NCBI GenBank assembly: GCA_963770095.1
Contig: CAVYOO010000003.1
Span: 594,382 to 658,381, forward strand
DNA from: an uncultured Acidimicrobiia bacterium
Lineage (GTDB): Bacteria; Actinomycetota; Acidimicrobiia; IMCC26256; JAENVU01
Reading direction: 5' to 3'
DNA length: 64,000 nt
The notes beneath the pieces were generated by a model. That model saw nothing but the letters and a program-made list of their open reading frames with translations, had not been told where the DNA came from and ran no database searches. The position numbers and the translations under genes are program-made. Below, piece after piece: positions 13,283 through 63,719 of the stretch (position 1 is the stretch's first letter; each line of letters opens with the position of its first letter).

Positions 13283-13568
13283 GGATACCTCGGTTGCGAG
13301 TCAGTGAGCACAGGCCCCATCGAGCTGGGGCCGGTTTCGCACTGGCTTCCCGCAGGCTCATGCGACCAGTTGGATCGCCTGCGGATCAACGCCTCCCTGA
13401 GGTGTGACCTGTTCCCTCCAGTGTGCGCCAATTGCCACAAAACGGCCATAGGGCGCTGGACCTGGATCTCACACGGATCGGACCCGGGTCAGCCGCGGCG
13501 CCGCCCGGCGTTCGAGAACGGAGATTCCGGGCGTAGGGTCGCGAGGTGCAGCGGATCAGGGGTCGTCG

Positions 13569-57885: not shown

Positions 57886-58371
57886 AAGCTCTCCGAAGGG
57901 GTCGAGTGGGGACTCCACTGCGGGGTCCTGCTGGGGTTCCTGGGGCCGGAGGCGTCGCTGCCGACCGCTCGCCTGGCCGAGTACCACGGGGTCCCGGCCG
58001 CCTACCTGGCCAAGCACCTCCAGGCCATGAGCCGGGCCGGGCTGCTGGCGTCGGTGCCGGGCCCCAAGGGCGGGTACCGGCTGGCCCGGCCGGCGGCGGA
58101 CATCAATGTGCTCGAGGTCGTCGAAGCGATCGACGGCCGGGAATCGGCGTTCCGGTGTGCGGAGATCCGTCGCCGGGGGCCCGCCGCCCGTCCGGCGCGT
58201 GAGTACCGCGTGCCGTGCGCGATCCACACCGTGATGAACCGGGCCGACGAGGCGTGGCGCGACGAGCTCGGAGCGGTGTCGCTCGCGGACCTCATGCAAG
58301 AAGTTGTTGCCGGCGCGTCACCCAAGGGCCTGGAACAAGGCGTCAGTTGGATGCAGGAGGTATTGGGATGA
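57883..58371 (+). CDS. Rrf2-family transcriptional regulator (no Cys cluster; non-Fe-S type)
   Basis: MKLSEGVEWGLHCGVLLG...LPTARLAEYHGVPAAYLAKHLQAMSRAGLLASVPGPKGGYRLARPAADINVLEVVEAIDG is a wHTH Rrf2 signature. Confidence 0.85.
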   Translation: MKLSEGVEWGLHCGVLLGFLGPEASLPTARLAEYHGVPAAYLAKHLQAMSRAGLLASVPGPKGGYRLARPAADINVLEVVEAIDGRESAFRCAEIRRRGPAARPAREYRVPCAIHTVMNRADEAWRDELGAVSLADLMQEVVAGASPKGLEQGVSWMQEVLG

Positions 58372-59298
58372 AGGTGTTCGTGACGGGCGCGACCGGAGTC
58401 GTGGGGACCCCGACCGTGGCGAAGCTCGTGGAGGCCGGCCACGAAGTGCGCGACGATCGCGCGCCGGGAGGAGGCCGCGCAGAGGTTGAAGGCGGCCGGC
58501 GCCGAGCCCGTGACCGTCGATCTCTTCGACGCCGCCGGGATCAGCGCAGCCGTCGCGGGGACGGACGCCATCGCGCATCTCGCGACCAACGTGCCCCCGT
58601 TCCCGCAGCTGGTGCGTACCAAGGCCTGGGCGACGCACAACCGGATCCGGACCGAGGGCACCCGCAACCTGGTCGACGCGGCGCGCGCGAACGGCATTGG
58701 CCGCATCCTGAAGGAGTCGATCACGTTCGTCTACGCCGACGGTGGGGACGCGTGGCTCGACGAGACCGCGCCGATCATCGCCCAGCTCGGGCTGATGGCG
58801 CCGACGATCGACGGGGAGAAGATCGCCCTCGAGCTCGGCGAAGACGGTGGCGCGGCGGTCGTGCTCCGCTTCGGGCTCTTCTACGGCGGCGCCAACCGCG
58901 GCACCGACGAGATGCTCCGGCTCGCGCGCTGGCGCGCGTCGATGGTGGCGGGCAAGGGCAGCTCGTTCATGAGCTCGATCCACGCCGAGGATGTCGCGAC
59001 CGCGGTCGTGGCCGCGTTGGACGCGCCCACCGGGATCTACAACGTCTGCGACGACGAGCCCCTCACCCGCCGCGACGCGCTCGACGCGTTCTCCGCCGCG
59101 TTCGACGTCGGTCGGTTGCGCACGAACCCGACCTGGATCATGAAGCTGTTGGCCGGTCCGGCCGCGGCATCGCTCATCGCGTCGCAGCGGGTCTCGAACC
59201 GGAAGTTCCGCGACGCGACCGGGTGGTCACCGATGTATCCGAGCCTGCGCGAAGGCTGGAAGGCCGAACGCACGAAACGGGAGCTGAACCATGCGTGA
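58368..59298 (+). CDS. NAD(P)-binding NmrA-like/atypical SDR epimerase-dehydratase family protein; frameshift at about 58447
   Basis: ATG overlaps the Rrf2 stop (ATGA). MKVFVTGATGVVGTPTVAKLVEAGHEV then +1 frame ARREEAAQRLKAAGAEPVTVDLFD... (ORF 58486..59298). Confidence 0.7.
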
Positions 59299-59725
59299 GA
59301 CGGTGTTACGAATCGGACTGGCGGTCCTCGCGGTTCCCGCATTGATCATCGGGGTCTGGGCGGCGTTCGCCCCGCGCTCGTTCTTCGACGACTTCCCCGG
59401 CCTCGGCCGCGTGTGGGTCGCGCCGGACGGCCTCTACAACCAACATCTGGTTCGTGACGTCGGCGAGCTCAACCTCGCCCTCGTCGTCGTGACCACGGTG
59501 GCGTTGGTGACGCTCGCACCGATGCTCGTGCGAGCCGTCCTGGCGGGCTGGATCGTCTACTCGGTGCCCCACCTCGTGTACCACCTGCGCAACATGGAGC
59601 CGTTCGCGACCGACGACCAGGTGTCGATCGCGGCGAGCCTCGCGCTCGTGCCGATCCTCGCGATCGTCCTGTTCGTCATCGAGGTCCGAGCCCCCCAGGA
59701 GGCGACGGTCGAGCCGGTGACATGA
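59291..59725 (+). CDS. Small 4-TM membrane protein (unknown)
   Basis: 144 aa, four hydrophobic helices, intact. Confidence 0.5.
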   Translation: MRETVLRIGLAVLAVPALIIGVWAAFAPRSFFDDFPGLGRVWVAPDGLYNQHLVRDVGELNLALVVVTTVALVTLAPMLVRAVLAGWIVYSVPHLVYHLRNMEPFATDDQVSIAASLALVPILAIVLFVIEVRAPQEATVEPVT

Positions 59726-60494
59726 TGCGCCCATCACGGTCGACCGCCCGCTCTTCACGTTCGAACACGCCGGCCTCGTCGGAGCCGACGGTCGGGACCG
59801 GTTGGTCGATGTCACCGGGGAGGTCGCGCCCGATGGCGTGACCGTCGTCGTCGGTCCGTCCGGCGCCGGGAAGTCGAGCCTGCTGCGGCTTTGCAACCGA
59901 CTCGAGGTCGCGGACCGGGGTTCGGTGCGCTTCCGTGGTGAGGATGTCGCAGGCATGGACCCCCTCGCGTTACGCCGCCGCGTCGGGATGGTCTTCCAGA
60001 CGCCGACCCCGTTTGCCGGGACCGTGTTCGAGAACCTCCGCGTCGCGCGTCGCGATCTGGACCCGGCGGCGGCGGAGCAGGCGCTCGAACGGGTCGAGCT
60101 CGACGCCTCGTTCCTCCCCCGACCGGCGTCCGAGCTGTCGGGCGGTGAGGCGCAGCGCATGTGCCTCGCGCGGACCCTCGTGACCGGCCCCGAGGTCCTG
60201 CTCATGGACGAGCCGACGTCCTCGGTCGACCCGCAGGCGACCGTCGCGCTCGAACAGCTGGCGCGGCAGCTCCTCGACCACGGAGTCGTCTGCATCTGGG
60301 TGACCCACGACCTCGCGCAGATGCGCCGCCTCGCCGATCAGGTCCTCGTCGTGCTCGACGGCTCGATCGCGCAGGCCGGCCCACTCGCCGACCTCGATCG
60401 GGACGCATCACCGGCGGTCGCTCAGTTCCTCCTCGGCGCGGACGATCCTGCGCCCGGCGAGCGAGCTCACGGAGACCCGGGGGAACATGGCTGA
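59722..60494 (+). CDS. ABC transporter ATP-binding protein, FetA/YbbL-like; likely frameshift at the extreme 5' end
   Basis: GPSGAGKSSLLR, LSGGEAQRMCLARTL, LLMDEPTSSVD. Coding frame (DAPITVDRPLFTFEHAGLV...) opens just after the ATG at 59722 but out of frame with it. TTG at 59802 is the first in-frame start. Confidence 0.75.
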
Positions 60495-61265
60495 CATCGG
60501 CTGGAGCGGGCTGGCGATCTCGCTGGTGCTCGTCGGGATCGCGATCGGACTCTCGATGTGGCGCGGGCTCGGCCTCGAGCGGAGCATCGCGTGGGCAACC
60601 GTGCGCGCGCTCGTGCAGCTGCTCGCGGTGGGCCTCGCGCTGCAGGTGCTGCTGCGGCCCGAGACGTCCCTCGGGTGGTCGGTGCTGTGGGTGCTCGGAA
60701 TGATCGTGTTCGCCGCCGAGACCGTCCGCCGCCGCGCCGCGAGGTGCCGCAGGTGTTCCCTCTCGCGCTGGCCGCGTTCGGCGCCGCGGCGGTCGTCGTG
60801 CTCGGGGTCCTGTTCGGCTTCGGAGTGTTCGAGCTCGACGCGCGGACGCTCATCCCACTTGCGGGTCTGATGATCGGGAACTCGATGACCGCGACGGTGC
60901 TCGTCGCGCGCCGGCTCGTGGAGGAGCTGCGCGACAAGCGGGCCGAGGTCGAGGCCCGGCTCGCGCTCGGTCAGCCGTCCGTCGACGCGGCCGCTCCGTA
61001 CGTCCGCAACGCGCTGCGGACCGCGCTCGTGCCCCAGATCGAGACGACGAAGGCGGTCGGCCTGATCTTCCTGCCGGGGGCGATGACCGGCCTGATCCTC
61101 GCCGGGGTCGACCCGCTGGAAGCGGTGCAGGTGCAGGCCGCGGTGATGTTCGTGGTGCTCGCGTCCGCGGCGACGACCACCGCGGTGGTTGCCCTCGGGG
61201 TCCGCCGGCGGCTGTTCACGGCGGATCACCGGTTGGTCCGGCTGGAGCGGACCGCCGAGCGCTGA
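60487..61265 (+). CDS. ABC permease FetB/YbbM-like (UPF0014); frameshift at about 60745
   Basis: MADIGWSGLAISLVLVGIAIGLS...AAETVRR then +1 frame ...VFPLALAAFGAAAVVVLGV...MIGNSMTAT...PGAMTGLILAGVDPLEAVQVQAAVMFVVLA. Confidence 0.7.
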
Positions 61266-61286
61266 GCCCGGCTCCGGACGTGGTGG

Positions 61287-61373
61287 CTAGCGCCGGCCCA
61301 CGTTGGGGCGCTTGCCGTGGTTGGCCTTGTTGCGGCGGGCCCGCAGCTTGCGCTTCTTCGTCTTCTTGCTCAC
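61287..61373 (-). CDS. Tiny (28-aa) highly basic protein, bS22-like composition (candidate ribosome-associated small protein)
   Basis: GTG at 61373 with GGAGGAG 7 nt upstream. Product VSKKTKKRKLRARRNKANHGKRPNVGRR. Listed ORF 61287..61559 is longer but only this part has an RBS. Confidence 0.4.
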   Translation of the reverse strand: MSKKTKKRKLRARRNKANHGKRPNVGRR

Positions 61374-61433
61374 GGTTCTGGCTCCTCCACGGCGAAGCGG
61401 GTCAGCGTAGTCCAGGGTCCTAGAGTCACTCCC

Positions 61434-62456
61434 ATGGAACACCTCGGGCTCGTGGGGCTCGCCGACTCGGGGCACGCCCGGCTCTTCTCCGCCCTGACCG
61501 GTCTCGACGCGGCCACCTCCTCGGACAAGGTGCTCGGCGTCGTCCAGCTGCCGGATCACCGCCTGGACCAGCTCGCGGCGATGTCGGAGTCCAAGAACGT
61601 GGTCCCGGCGACCTTCGAGATCATGTACATCCCGGGCCTCTCCACCGAGCCCGGCAAGGGGCTCGGGAGCCGCCTCCTGGGCCAGCTCCGGGACTGCGAC
61701 GCCGTCCTCTTCGTGCTCCGCGCCACCGACGGCAACGACCCGGCCTCGGACCTCGAGACCCTGGAGTACGAGCTCGTCCTGGCCGACCTCGCGTCGGTCG
61801 AGCAGCGGTTGGGCAAGCAGCAGCGCCTCTACAAGGGGGACAAGACCCTCGGTCCGGAGATCAAGGCGCTCGAGCGGGCGATCGAGGTCCTCGGCGACGG
61901 CACGCCGGTCTACCGCTCGGACCTCACCGCCGACGAGCGCGCGCTGCTCGGGCCCGTCTTCCTCCTGACCAACAAGCCGGTGCTGCCCGTCGTGAACATC
62001 GGGGTCGAGCAGCTCGAGGAAGCGGACGCGATCGCGAAGCCGCTCGGCGACGACGCGCTGTCGGTCTGCCTCGAGCTCGAAGGCGACCCGGACGTCGTCG
62101 CCGCGGAAGGTGCTGATCGCGCCGAGCTGCTCGCGGACCTCGGCGTCCCCGAGAGCGTCGTCCCGCGGCTCGCCGCGCGGCGTACCAGCTGCTCGGGTTG
62201 CGCACCTTCCTCACGACGGGGGACAAGGAGAGCCGCGGCGTGGGGATTCCGCGCCGGTGCACGCGCGCCGGAGTGCGCGGGCGTCATCCACTCGGACCTG
62301 GAGCGGGGGTTCATCCGCGCCGAGGTCATCCGCTGGGACGAGCTGCTGGAGCTCGGTTCGTGGGCGAAGGCCAAGGAGGCGCACAAGCTGCGGGTGGAGG
62401 GCAAGGAGTACGTCGTTGCCGACGGTGACGTGCTCGAGATCCGATTCAACGTGTGA
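61434..62456 (+). CDS. ychF: Redox-regulated ATPase YchF (Obg-family GTPase); two frameshifts at about 62180 and about 62240
   Basis: MEHLGLVGLADSGHARLFSALTG (G1), ...FLLTNKPV..., C-terminal TGS domain APECAGVIHSDLERGFIRAEV...VVADGDVLEIRFNV. Middle segment YQLLGLRTFLTTGDKESR lies in another frame. Confidence 0.85.
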   Translation: MEHLGLVGLADSGHARLFSALTGLDAATSSDKVLGVVQLPDHRLDQLAAMSESKNVVPATFEIMYIPGLSTEPGKGLGSRLLGQLRDCDAVLFVLRATDGNDPASDLETLEYELVLADLASVEQRLGKQQRLYKGDKTLGPEIKALERAIEVLGDGTPVYRSDLTADERALLGPVFLLTNKPVLPVVNIGVEQLEEADAIAKPLGDDALSVCLELEGDPDVVAAEGADRAELLADLGVPESVVPRLAARRTSCSGCAPSSRRGTRRAAAWGFRAGARAPECAGVIHSDLERGFIRAEVIRWDELLELGSWAKAKEAHKLRVEGKEYVVADGDVLEIRFNV

Positions 62457-62862: not shown

Positions 62863-62883
62863 CAACGACGGGCTCCGACCGTG

Positions 62884-63719
62884 ATGCTCGTGGTGATCGG
62901 GACTCCGATCGGGAATCTGGGGGACCTGTCGCCGCGGGCAATCGACGCGTTGCGGGACGCGGACGTGATCGCGTGCTGAGGACACGCGGCGGACGCGGAA
63001 GCTGCTGTCGCACACGGGGATCTCGGCCGAAGGGCGGCTGCGCGCGGTGCACGCGCACAACGAGGCGCAGGCGGCGGAGCGGATCGTCGACGAGGTGCGC
63101 AGCGGGTTGACCGTGGTCTACGCGACCGACGCGGGGATGCCGGGCGTCAGCGACCCGGGCGCGCGCATCGTGCTCGCGTGCCGGACCGCGGGGCTCGCCG
63201 GTGCAGGTCATCCCGGGGCCGAGTGCCGCGCTCGCCGCGCTCGCGCTGTCCGGGTTCCCGGCCGACCAGTTCGTGTTCGAAGGGTTCCTCCCACGCAAGG
63301 GGAAGGAACGAAGGGAACGGATCGCAAACATCAAAGGTGAAGCGCGCACTGTCGTCATCTTCGAAGCGCCGAACCGGGTTGCCGCGACGCTCACCGACCT
63401 GGCCGCGGTCTGCGACGGCGAACGACTCGTCTGCGTCGCGCGCGAGATCACCAAGCTCCACGAAGAGGTGTTCCACGGCCCGCTCGAGACCGCGGCGGCA
63501 ATCGCGCACGCCGGTGAGCCACGAGGCGAGCACGTCATCGTCCTCAACGGGCAGCCCGCGGACATCACGCCCGCGACCGAGGAAGCGCTCGACGACGCGG
63601 TGCGCGCCGCGCTCGACCGCGGTCTCTCGGCCAAGGACGCGGCGGCGGAAGTCGCCGCGAGCCTCGGCGTGCCGAAGCGCCGGGCCTACGAGCTGGCGGT
63701 CACGCTCCGGAAGCGGTGA
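62884..63719 (+). CDS. rsmI: 16S rRNA (cytidine1402-2'-O)-methyltransferase RsmI; two frameshifts at about 62978 and about 63200
   Basis: MLVVIGTPIGNLGDLSPRAIDALRDADVIAC | EDTRRTRKLLSHTGI...LTVVYATDAGMPGVSDPGARIV | ...QVIPGPSAALAALALSGFPADQFVFEGFLPRKGKERRERI...VIFEAPNRV in three frames. Confidence 0.8.

What the first reader, a model, noticed from the sequence alone, without database searches (positions are those of the whole stretch)
61287..61373. Unannotatable-by-length 28-codon ORF with textbook RBS encoding an extremely basic peptide
Minus strand: GGAGGAG-N7-GTG AGC AAG AAG ACG AAG AAG CGC AAG CTG CGG GCC CGC CGC AAC AAG GCC AAC CAC GGC AAG CGC CCC AACGTG GGC CGG CGC TAG gives VSKKTKKRKLRARRNKANHGKRPNVGRR (about 50% Lys/Arg). 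Composition and size are like the actinobacterial ribosomal protein bS22 family and other ribosome-bound micro-proteins. It sits divergently from ychF, a ribosome-associated ATPase. Most ORF callers, this track included, would mis-size or miss it: the track reports a 90-aa ORF with an implausible N-terminus.
Basis: partly seen in the sequence, partly recalled or inferred. Interest (0 to 1): 0.5.

Follow-up and report, generated by a model that had tools for sequence, protein, structure and literature searches.

The report
Ribosomal micro-protein bL37 gene

Summary
The ORF is there exactly as described: minus strand 61373..61287, GTG start, TAG stop, product MSKKTKKRKLRARRNKANHGKRPNVGRR, 14 of 28 residues Lys/Arg. 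GGAGGAG lies 8 nt upstream, not 7. It is not bS22. The only curated family it hits is NCBIfam NF047428, "50S ribosomal protein bL37" (E 4.6e-7; 29.9 bits, cutoff 30). The bS22 model NF047430 does not match. Among solved structures, every match below E = 0.1 is a bL37 chain (Cutibacterium acnes, Mycobacterium smegmatis, M. tuberculosis), sharing ANHGKRPN. The same 27-29-aa peptide occurs in more than 100 Acidimicrobiia genomes and metagenome contigs. Sequence upstream of the M/V start is unrelated between hits, so the 90-aa ORF is a caller artefact. Codon analysis shows purifying selection (pN/pS 0.28; third positions vary about three times more than first and second). RefSeq already names an 86%-identical ortholog bL37. 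Minor extras: a class-specific, selected C-terminal xGR[RG] tail, and an SD-led GTG start in this clade where 70 of 80 loci look (near-)leaderless. A ychF-like gene lies upstream and divergent in 42 of 80 loci, and here it has a degenerate nucleotide-binding site. Verdict: real gene, already known kind, low interest.

The parts
61287..61373 (-). bL37 coding sequence: 28 codons plus TAG, GTG start; product MSKKTKKRKLRARRNKANHGKRPNVGRR
   Evidence: sequence; NF047428 bL37, E 4.6e-7; bL37 chains are the only PDB matches below E = 0.1; conserved in >100 Acidimicrobiia sequences; pN/pS 0.28.
61382..61388 (-). Shine-Dalgarno sequence GGAGGAG, 8 nt upstream of the GTG
   Evidence: An SD-like motif at the same place in the relatives L001, L002, L004, L006, L008, L011, L013, L015 and L021. 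Function inferred.
61404..61409 (-). Putative -10 promoter hexamer TACGCT (TANNNT type), 30 nt upstream of the GTG; implies a 5' leader of about 24 nt
   Evidence: Inferred. TANNNT lies 23-38 nt upstream in 8 other SD-bearing loci, and 7-10 nt upstream of the ATG in 70 of 80 loci (0.33 expected by chance). The conserved 'DY' in mis-called N-termini is this DNA element read as protein. The E. coli-consensus scan found no promoter.
61421..61426 (+). Putative -10 hexamer TAGAGT of the divergent ychF-like gene, 7 nt before its ATG (leaderless-type)
   Evidence: sequence. TANNNT lies 6-10 nt before the ychF start in 37 of 42 loci. Inferred.
61434..62456 (+). Divergent neighbour: YchF-like gene with degenerate G1/G2/G3 motifs and a locally shifted frame (about 62174-62237). 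Context, not part of bL37.
   Evidence: YchF-GTPase_C 99 bits; MMR_HSR1 15.3, below 21.9; TIGR00092 206 bits, cutoff 279.2; alignments; synteny in 42 of 80 loci.

Best explanation
The ORF encodes the Acidimicrobiia ortholog of ribosomal protein bL37, a roughly 24-aa, extremely basic protein of the 50S subunit. [quoted passage not shown] It sits buried in a 23S rRNA pocket formed by H39, H40, the H41/H42 junction, H72 and H89, under the tip of 5S rRNA and next to the peptidyl-transferase centre, where it is thought to stabilise H89. By homology the window's peptide does the same. Residues 1-16 (MSKKTKKRKLRARRNK) would form the basic helix and residues 17-24 (ANHGKRPN) the conserved loop. A class-specific four-residue tail (VGRR) probably adds further rRNA-backbone contacts. 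In this genome the gene looks like a monocistronic unit: a TANNNT-type -10 element (TACGCT, 61409-61404), a leader of about 24 nt with a strong SD, and a GTG start. It lies back to back with the leaderless-type promoter of a ychF-like gene. Shown: existence, conservation, purifying selection and family assignment. Inferred: location on the ribosome, role of the tail, promoter and leader.
For: NCBIfam gives a single hit, NF047428 ribo_Myco_bL37 (equivalog), at E 4.6e-7 and 29.9 bits, aligned over 1-24 of the peptide and 1-23 of 24 profile positions. Orthologs 89% and 86% identical score 31.6 and 34.5 bits, above the cutoff of 30. phmmer against the PDB finds bL37 chains only: 8crx_V C. acnes E 0.0055, 5o60_3 M. 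smegmatis 0.016, 7kgb_v M. tuberculosis 0.019, all sharing ANHGKRPN. A profile of 15 Acidimicrobiia peptides improves 8crx_V to E 9.8e-5. There are 132 database homologs with an invariant core and unrelated upstream sequence. Two are named by NCBI as '50S ribosomal protein bL37' (WP_419923509.1 and MGQ0825561.1). 119 tblastn-confirmed stretches were found in GTDB species genomes, and nearly all of the 80 kept are labelled Acidimicrobiia or its orders and families. Over 65 distinct CDS, entropy at codon positions 1/2/3 is 0.33/0.27/0.89 bits and pN/pS is 0.28. Ser2 is kept through AGY<->TCN switches, Gly26 uses all four codons, and Arg27 is invariant. The structural role comes from PMC5876184, PMC10085706 and PMC10618245.
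Against: The score is 0.1 bit under NCBIfam's curated cutoff. No Acidimicrobiia ribosome structure or ribosome proteomics was found in the PDB or literature searches run here, so physical residence on the 50S subunit is by homology only. The peptide is four residues longer than every structurally characterised bL37. Identity to M. smegmatis bL37 outside the ANHGKRPN loop is low: 3 of 14 compared positions, counted by hand from the alignment. Very short, compositionally biased sequences give weak statistics against the PDB (E 1e-2 to 1e-4).
Confidence: 0.93

Rival explanations
1. It is a bS22-family protein (30S subunit, AURKAIP1/COX24-like) or a second bS22 copy.
For: Only the general resemblance in size and Lys/Arg content.
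Against: The NCBIfam bS22 model NF047430 scores M. smegmatis bS22 at 62.6 bits but gives no match to this peptide at E <= 10. tblastn of bS22 onto this ORF gives E 2.9, which is noise. No bS22 chain appears among the PDB matches.
Confidence: 0.01
2. It is a chance ORF in GC-rich DNA, or the real product is the 90-aa ORF 61287..61559.
For: Arg-rich spurious ORFs are common in DNA of 69% G+C. One other basic short ORF with an SD exists in the window (+32520).
Against: The peptide is conserved from the M/V start to the stop in more than 100 genomes, while the sequence upstream of it is unrelated or reads only as a conserved DNA promoter element. Codon-position pattern and pN/pS of 0.28 also argue against chance. 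The 90-aa ORF overlaps the ychF-like start on the other strand and is not on record as a called gene.
Confidence: 0.01
3. Its main role is outside the ribosome, for example as a cationic antimicrobial peptide. This was suggested for C. acnes bL37, which inhibits Gram-positive cocci in disk assays.
For: PMC10085706 reports growth inhibition of S. epidermidis and S. aureus by synthetic C. acnes bL37.
Against: There is no signal peptide, export gene or immunity gene nearby. The neighbours are a ychF-like gene, a FetA/FetB-type ABC pair, DUF192 and rsmI. Near-invariance across a whole bacterial class is typical of a structural ribosomal component, not of a bacteriocin. The cited activity was measured with added synthetic peptide.
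Confidence: 0.04
4. It is a regulatory upstream or leader peptide controlling a downstream gene.
For: Short ORF with a strong SD.
Against: Nothing lies downstream on the same strand. 21 nt after its stop codon, the convergent UPF0014/FetB-like gene ends (TGA 61263-61265). Neighbours downstream differ between loci (ABC pair only in L003, L006 and L019), while the peptide sequence itself is conserved.
Confidence: 0.01

Closest known systems
bL37 of Mycobacterium smegmatis / M. tuberculosis (UniProt A0QTP4; PDB 5O60 chain 3, 7KGB chain v)
   Same: Very basic micro-protein with the identical C-terminal loop motif KANHGKRPN, an N-terminal Lys/Arg-rich segment of the same length, and the same phylum (Actinomycetota). 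It is the founding member of NF047428, which the peptide hits at E 4.6e-7.
   Different: 24 aa against 28 aa (extra VGRR tail). The N-terminal half is only loosely similar (MAKRGRKKRDRKHSK against MSKKTKKRKLRARRNK). Residence on the ribosome is shown by cryo-EM only for the mycobacterial protein.
bL37 of Cutibacterium acnes (PDB 8CRX chain V)
   Same: Best structural-database match (E 0.0055 with the single sequence, 9.8e-5 with the profile). About 79% identity over the 19 aligned positions, counted by hand. Contacts H39, H40, H72, H89 and the 5S rRNA tip (PMC10085706).
   Different: 24 aa, with one extra Gly before ANHGKRPN and no C-terminal tail.
RefSeq WP_419923509.1, '50S ribosomal protein bL37' of Candidatus Poriferisodalis sp. 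(Acidimicrobiia), and MGQ0825561.1
   Same: Same class, same length (28-29 aa), same tail type (xGR[GR]), 86-93% identity. Already annotated as bL37.
   Different: A few substitutions: K4R, K6N, V25C and R28G in WP_419923509.1, which lift it to 34.5 bits, above the NCBIfam cutoff. The window's sequence stays at 29.9.
bS22 (NF047430; M. smegmatis, C. acnes, Flavobacterium, Borrelia)
   Same: Actinobacterial ribosomal micro-protein of about 30 aa with more than 50% Lys/Arg, and routinely missed by annotation.
   Different: Different subunit (30S; h27/h44/h45 pocket) and no sequence similarity.
N-terminal extension of uL30 in Borreliella burgdorferi; Planctomycete bL37 (NF047429)
   Same: The uL30 extension occupies the same rRNA pocket as bL37 (PMC10618245). 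NF047429 is a second curated bL37 family.
   Different: The uL30 extension is part of a larger protein. NF047429 gives at best 12.5 bits, to one of the relatives tested, and no match to the window peptide.

Membership tests
50S ribosomal protein bL37 (NCBIfam NF047428) | Whole-protein score at or above the curated cutoff (30 bits) of the equivalog model | tested here: inconclusive
   29.9 bits, E 4.6e-7, 0.1 bit short. Orthologs 89% and 86% identical score 31.6 and 34.5; other Acidimicrobiia variants score 18.3-29.7. The class straddles a cutoff trained on 24-aa Mycobacteriales-type sequences.
50S ribosomal protein bL37 (NCBIfam NF047428) | Conserved C-terminal loop motif (K)ANHGKRPN | tested here: met
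   Residues 16-24 are KANHGKRPN, identical to the M. smegmatis and M. tuberculosis chains; C. acnes shares ANHGKRPN. N18, H19, G20, K21 and P23 are invariant in 15 representative relatives and in 65 distinct CDS.
50S ribosomal protein bL37 (NCBIfam NF047428) | Micro-protein of about 24 aa with a strongly basic N-terminal segment of about 13-16 residues | tested here: met
   28 aa, with 10 Lys/Arg in residues 1-16. Four residues longer at the C-terminus than the solved members.
50S ribosomal protein bL37 (NCBIfam NF047428) | Restricted to high-G+C Actinomycetota | tested here: met
   Window G+C is 69.4%. Nearly all of the 80 related loci are labelled Acidimicrobiia, Acidimicrobiales, Ilumatobacteraceae, Microthrix, Poriferisodalis or Actinomycetota. 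PMC5876184 states that bL37 occurs only in high-G+C actinobacteria.
50S ribosomal protein bL37 (NCBIfam NF047428) | Physically bound in the 23S rRNA pocket H39/H40/H41-42/H72/H89 under the 5S rRNA tip | not testable with these tools
   Needs cryo-EM or mass spectrometry of Acidimicrobiia ribosomes. No Acidimicrobiia ribosome chain appeared among the PDB matches.
30S ribosomal protein bS22 (NCBIfam NF047430) | Match to the bS22 equivalog model / AURKAIP1-COX24-like sequence | tested here: not met
   No match at E <= 10. The positive control, M. smegmatis bS22, scores 62.6 bits.
Redox-regulated ATPase YchF (TIGR00092), the neighbouring gene | Score above the curated cutoff, with intact G1 (GxxxxGKS/T), G2 and G3 (DxxG) motifs | tested here: not met
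   206.2 bits against a cutoff of 279.2. Walker A reads GLADSGHA (Lys->His, Ser->Ala), the G2 segment is deleted and the G3 Asp is lost. The C-terminal YchF domain is intact (99 bits).

The most novel reading that the evidence does not exclude
The Acidimicrobiia form of bL37 could be a distinct structural variant. Its conserved xGR[RG] C-terminal tail, selected at the protein level, may reach rRNA elements that the 24-aa mycobacterial protein does not touch. One clade, including this genome, has moved the gene from a (near-)leaderless ATG mRNA to an SD-led GTG mRNA, which could change how bL37 dosage is set. Its recurrent back-to-back pairing with ychF would then be a co-regulated ribosome-associated module. 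Here ychF has lost its nucleotide-binding motifs, and it is deleted outright in the close relative L001.
Probability: 0.2. Interest if true: 0.3.

Novelty: already known. Interest (0 to 1): 0.15.

Why it matters
It matters mainly for annotation. bL37 is a constitutive ribosomal protein next to the peptidyl-transferase centre in Actinomycetota. It is still missed, mis-sized or labelled 'hypothetical' in most Acidimicrobiia assemblies, because the class-specific sequence straddles the curated HMM cutoff (18-35 bits, cutoff 30). Recognising it corrects the 90-aa artefact ORF here. It also shows that a retrained or lower-threshold bL37 model would recover the gene across this class. It does not open a new biological question.

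Tried and rejected
- **Direct homolog search:** I repeated it with the peptide padded by its 17 upstream in-frame codons.
- **Exact look-up of the 90-aa ORF:** not on record, so the source contig was not identified.
- **Pfam:** no hit for the peptide or for database homologs that carry a precomputed PF26427.1 tag. The local Pfam copy appears not to hold that model, so I could not retrieve its name.
- **E. coli-consensus promoter scan of 61150-61550:** nothing found. One terminator-like site on the wrong strand inside the ORF was judged to be chance. I used TANNNT-type analysis across loci instead.
- **Rfam at gathering threshold:** nothing at or near the locus. There are no tRNAs in the window.
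- **bS22 search of the window by tblastn:** only Arg-rich noise, best E 0.022.
- **First synteny run:** used a ychF start off by one base and was discarded (redone).
- **Structure prediction:** not attempted. The peptide is below the 30-aa minimum, and it would only fold in the context of rRNA.

Full report
**Observation**

The minus strand of the window carries a GTG at 61373-61371 and, 28 codons later, a TAG at 61289-61287. The product is (M)SKKTKKRKLRARRNKANHGKRPNVGRR, with 7 Lys and 7 Arg in 28 residues. GGAGGAG lies at 61388-61382.

The mechanical ORF list extends the frame to a GTG at 61559, giving 90 aa. There is no in-frame ATG/GTG/TTG between 61559 and 61373. The extension runs antisense over the start of the divergent ychF-like gene (ATG 61434). 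The description is therefore accurate. Composition plus an SD would not prove a gene by itself, because one other basic short ORF with an SD exists in the window at +32520.

**Identity**

Scanning the peptide against NCBIfam gives one hit: NF047428 'ribo_Myco_bL37', an equivalog model for 50S ribosomal protein bL37. The E-value is 4.6e-7 and the score 29.9 bits against a curated cutoff of 30. Residues 1-24 align to profile positions 1-23 of 24.

The bS22 model NF047430 exists in the same library and scores M. smegmatis bS22 at 62.6 bits. It gives no match to the window's peptide at E <= 10.

Against all PDB chain sequences, the single-sequence search matches bL37 chains only:
- 8crx_V, Cutibacterium acnes, E 0.0055
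- 5o60_3, M. smegmatis, E 0.016
- 7kgb_v, M. tuberculosis, E 0.019

All share ANHGKRPN. A profile of 15 relatives raises the C. acnes match to E 9.8e-5; its only non-bL37 match is a phospholipase A2 chain at E 0.84. Pfam gave nothing. The local copy seems to lack PF26427, the family tag precomputed on many database homologs.

**Conservation**

The protein database refuses queries under 40 aa, so I padded the peptide with its upstream in-frame codons. That search returned 132 clusters. Every one contains the core [M/V]SKKTKKRKLRARRNKANHGKRPN[VA]GRR or a close variant. Whatever precedes the M/V is unrelated between hits. This is the signature of mis-called starts on a 27-29-aa gene.

NCBI names two of the hits '50S ribosomal protein bL37': WP_419923509.1 from Candidatus Poriferisodalis sp., and MGQ0825561.1. 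The sequence identical to the window's is on record only at JGI as 'hypothetical protein', on 8 contigs.

A scan of one genome per GTDB species with an alignment of 15 variants (A1) gave 119 tblastn-confirmed stretches. Nearly all of the 80 kept are labelled Acidimicrobiia, Acidimicrobiales, Ilumatobacteraceae, Microthrix, Poriferisodalis or unclassified Actinomycetota. The window has 69.4% G+C and is closest to two uncultured Acidimicrobiia MAGs, L002 and L001, at 77-78% nucleotide identity over 3.5-4.5 kb.

**Selection**

I analysed 65 distinct 28-codon coding sequences:
- Mean entropy at codon positions 1, 2 and 3 is 0.33, 0.27 and 0.89 bits.
- Pooled pN/pS is 0.28.
- Ser2 is kept through AGY<->TCN switches, and Arg codons alternate between CGN and AGR.
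- In the C-terminal tail, Gly26 uses all four codons and Arg27 is invariant.

The gene is therefore under protein-level purifying selection. This includes the three or four residues that extend it beyond the 24-aa bL37 of Mycobacterium and Cutibacterium.

**Likely mechanism**

This part follows from established structures, not from tests run here. bL37 was discovered in M. smegmatis ribosome cryo-EM maps as a 24-aa protein (A0QTP4). [quoted passage not shown] It is enclosed by H39, H40, the H41/H42 junction, H72 and H89, next to the peptidyl-transferase centre, and was reported only in high-G+C actinobacteria (PMC5876184).

In C. acnes it also contacts the tip of 5S rRNA, and it is proposed to tie these helices together (PMC10085706). 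In Borreliella an N-terminal extension of uL30 fills the same pocket (PMC10618245).

By homology, the window's residues 1-16 would form the basic helix and residues 17-24 the conserved loop. The VGRR tail would be an extra basic appendage, probably making additional backbone contacts. That last point is inference only.

**Expression anatomy (inferred from comparative sequence)**

In 70 of 80 loci (79 fetched loci with a recognisable ORF plus the window), a TANNNT hexamer ends 7-10 nt upstream of an ATG start (0.33 loci expected by chance), and nearly all of these lack an SD-like motif. This is the arrangement of leaderless or nearly leaderless actinobacterial mRNAs.

Ten loci instead carry an SD-like motif 5-17 nt upstream, and in nine of them the hexamer lies 23-38 nt upstream. 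L002 has the SD but no hexamer within 45 nt. These loci are the window, L001, L002, L004, L006, L008, L011, L013, L015 and L021. All the GTG starts fall in this group. In the window the elements are TACGCT at 61409-61404, GGAGGAG at 61388-61382 and GTG at 61373.

The conserved 'LDYADPLRRG'-like stretch in several mis-called N-termini is this DNA element read as protein. An E. coli-consensus scan found no promoter, as expected for this phylum.

**Surroundings**

Upstream and divergent lies a YchF-like gene (61434-62456, plus strand). Its own TAGAGT hexamer sits 7 nt before the ATG. A ychF homolog lies upstream on the opposite strand in 42 of 80 loci, or 38 of the 66 loci with at least 3 kb of upstream flank. 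It is directly adjacent (under 200 nt) in 16.

Downstream, 21 nt after the bL37 stop, a convergent UPF0014/FetB-type permease gene ends, preceded by its ABC ATPase gene. That pair is present only in L003, L006 and L019. It is absent from the closest relatives L001, L002 and L004.

**Verdict**

The finding is a true gene and a good catch by eye. It is a member of an already described and already curated family, and orthologs from the same class are already named in RefSeq.

The practical value is for annotation. Acidimicrobiia bL37 sequences score 18-35 bits against a cutoff of 30, so most go unnamed.

**Side observations**

These are listed separately. They are a degenerate YchF clade, numerous frame breaks in the window, and a c-di-GMP-II riboswitch hit.

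Noticed in passing
window 61434-62456 (+); also L003, L016, L017, L024, L042, L019: The YchF-like neighbour belongs to a clade in which all nucleotide-binding motifs are degenerate. Walker A reads GLxDSGHA (Lys->His, Ser->Ala), the G2 'FxTT' segment is deleted and the G3 Asp is lost, while the C-terminal YchF domain stays well conserved. It occupies the same syntenic slot where L010 and L022 have canonical motifs. It scores below the TIGR00092 cutoff (206-246 bits against 279.2; canonical L010 scores 346.6). This may be a pseudo-ATPase YchF.
   Followed up: partly
window ~62174 and ~62237; L002 2532-3885; L001 3874-3905: The window's ychF has a 1-nt deletion and, 63 nt later, a 1-nt insertion relative to 8 homologs. 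This scrambles 21 codons of the most conserved YchF segment (LLGLRTFLTTGDKESRAW is readable in the other frame). L002 has an extra base at almost the same CG-rich spot plus another frame break. L001 lacks ychF altogether, and there bL37 abuts the DUF192 gene. This is either gene decay in this lineage or indel errors.
   Followed up: partly
window 62881-63719 (rsmI), 60487-61265 (UPF0014/FetB-like), 58215-59345 (epimerase): Several other genes are split across reading frames. rsmI matches TP_methylase profile positions 1-31, 62-111 and 112-211 in three different frames, whereas L002's rsmI is an intact 278-aa ORF. The window probably comes from an indel-prone (long-read) assembly. The bL37 ORF itself is intact, with a peptide identical to L001, L002 and L004.
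   Followed up: partly
L001-L080, upstream of the bL37 and ychF starts: A TANNNT hexamer lies 7-10 nt before the bL37 start codon in 70 of 80 loci, and 6-10 nt before the ychF start in 37 of 42 loci. This suggests that leaderless or near-leaderless mRNAs are the norm for these genes in Acidimicrobiia. The window's clade has switched bL37 to an SD-led GTG start.
   Followed up: partly
window 13321-13405 (-): Rfam hit to the c-di-GMP-II-GAG riboswitch aptamer (RF03169): 43.6 bits against a gathering score of 40, full-length match.
   Followed up: no
protein cluster of the exact peptide (P0129): The 90%-identity cluster holding the exact 28-aa sequence also lists a 749-aa NCBI member. This is presumably a grossly over-extended or fused gene call. 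Not examined.
   Followed up: no
L005, L015, L043, L053, L064: A few loci with the Acidimicrobiia-type bL37 come from MAGs labelled Bifidobacterium or Bifidobacteriaceae, and L059 is labelled Acidobacteria. These look like mislabelled bins rather than true hosts. Not checked.
   Followed up: no
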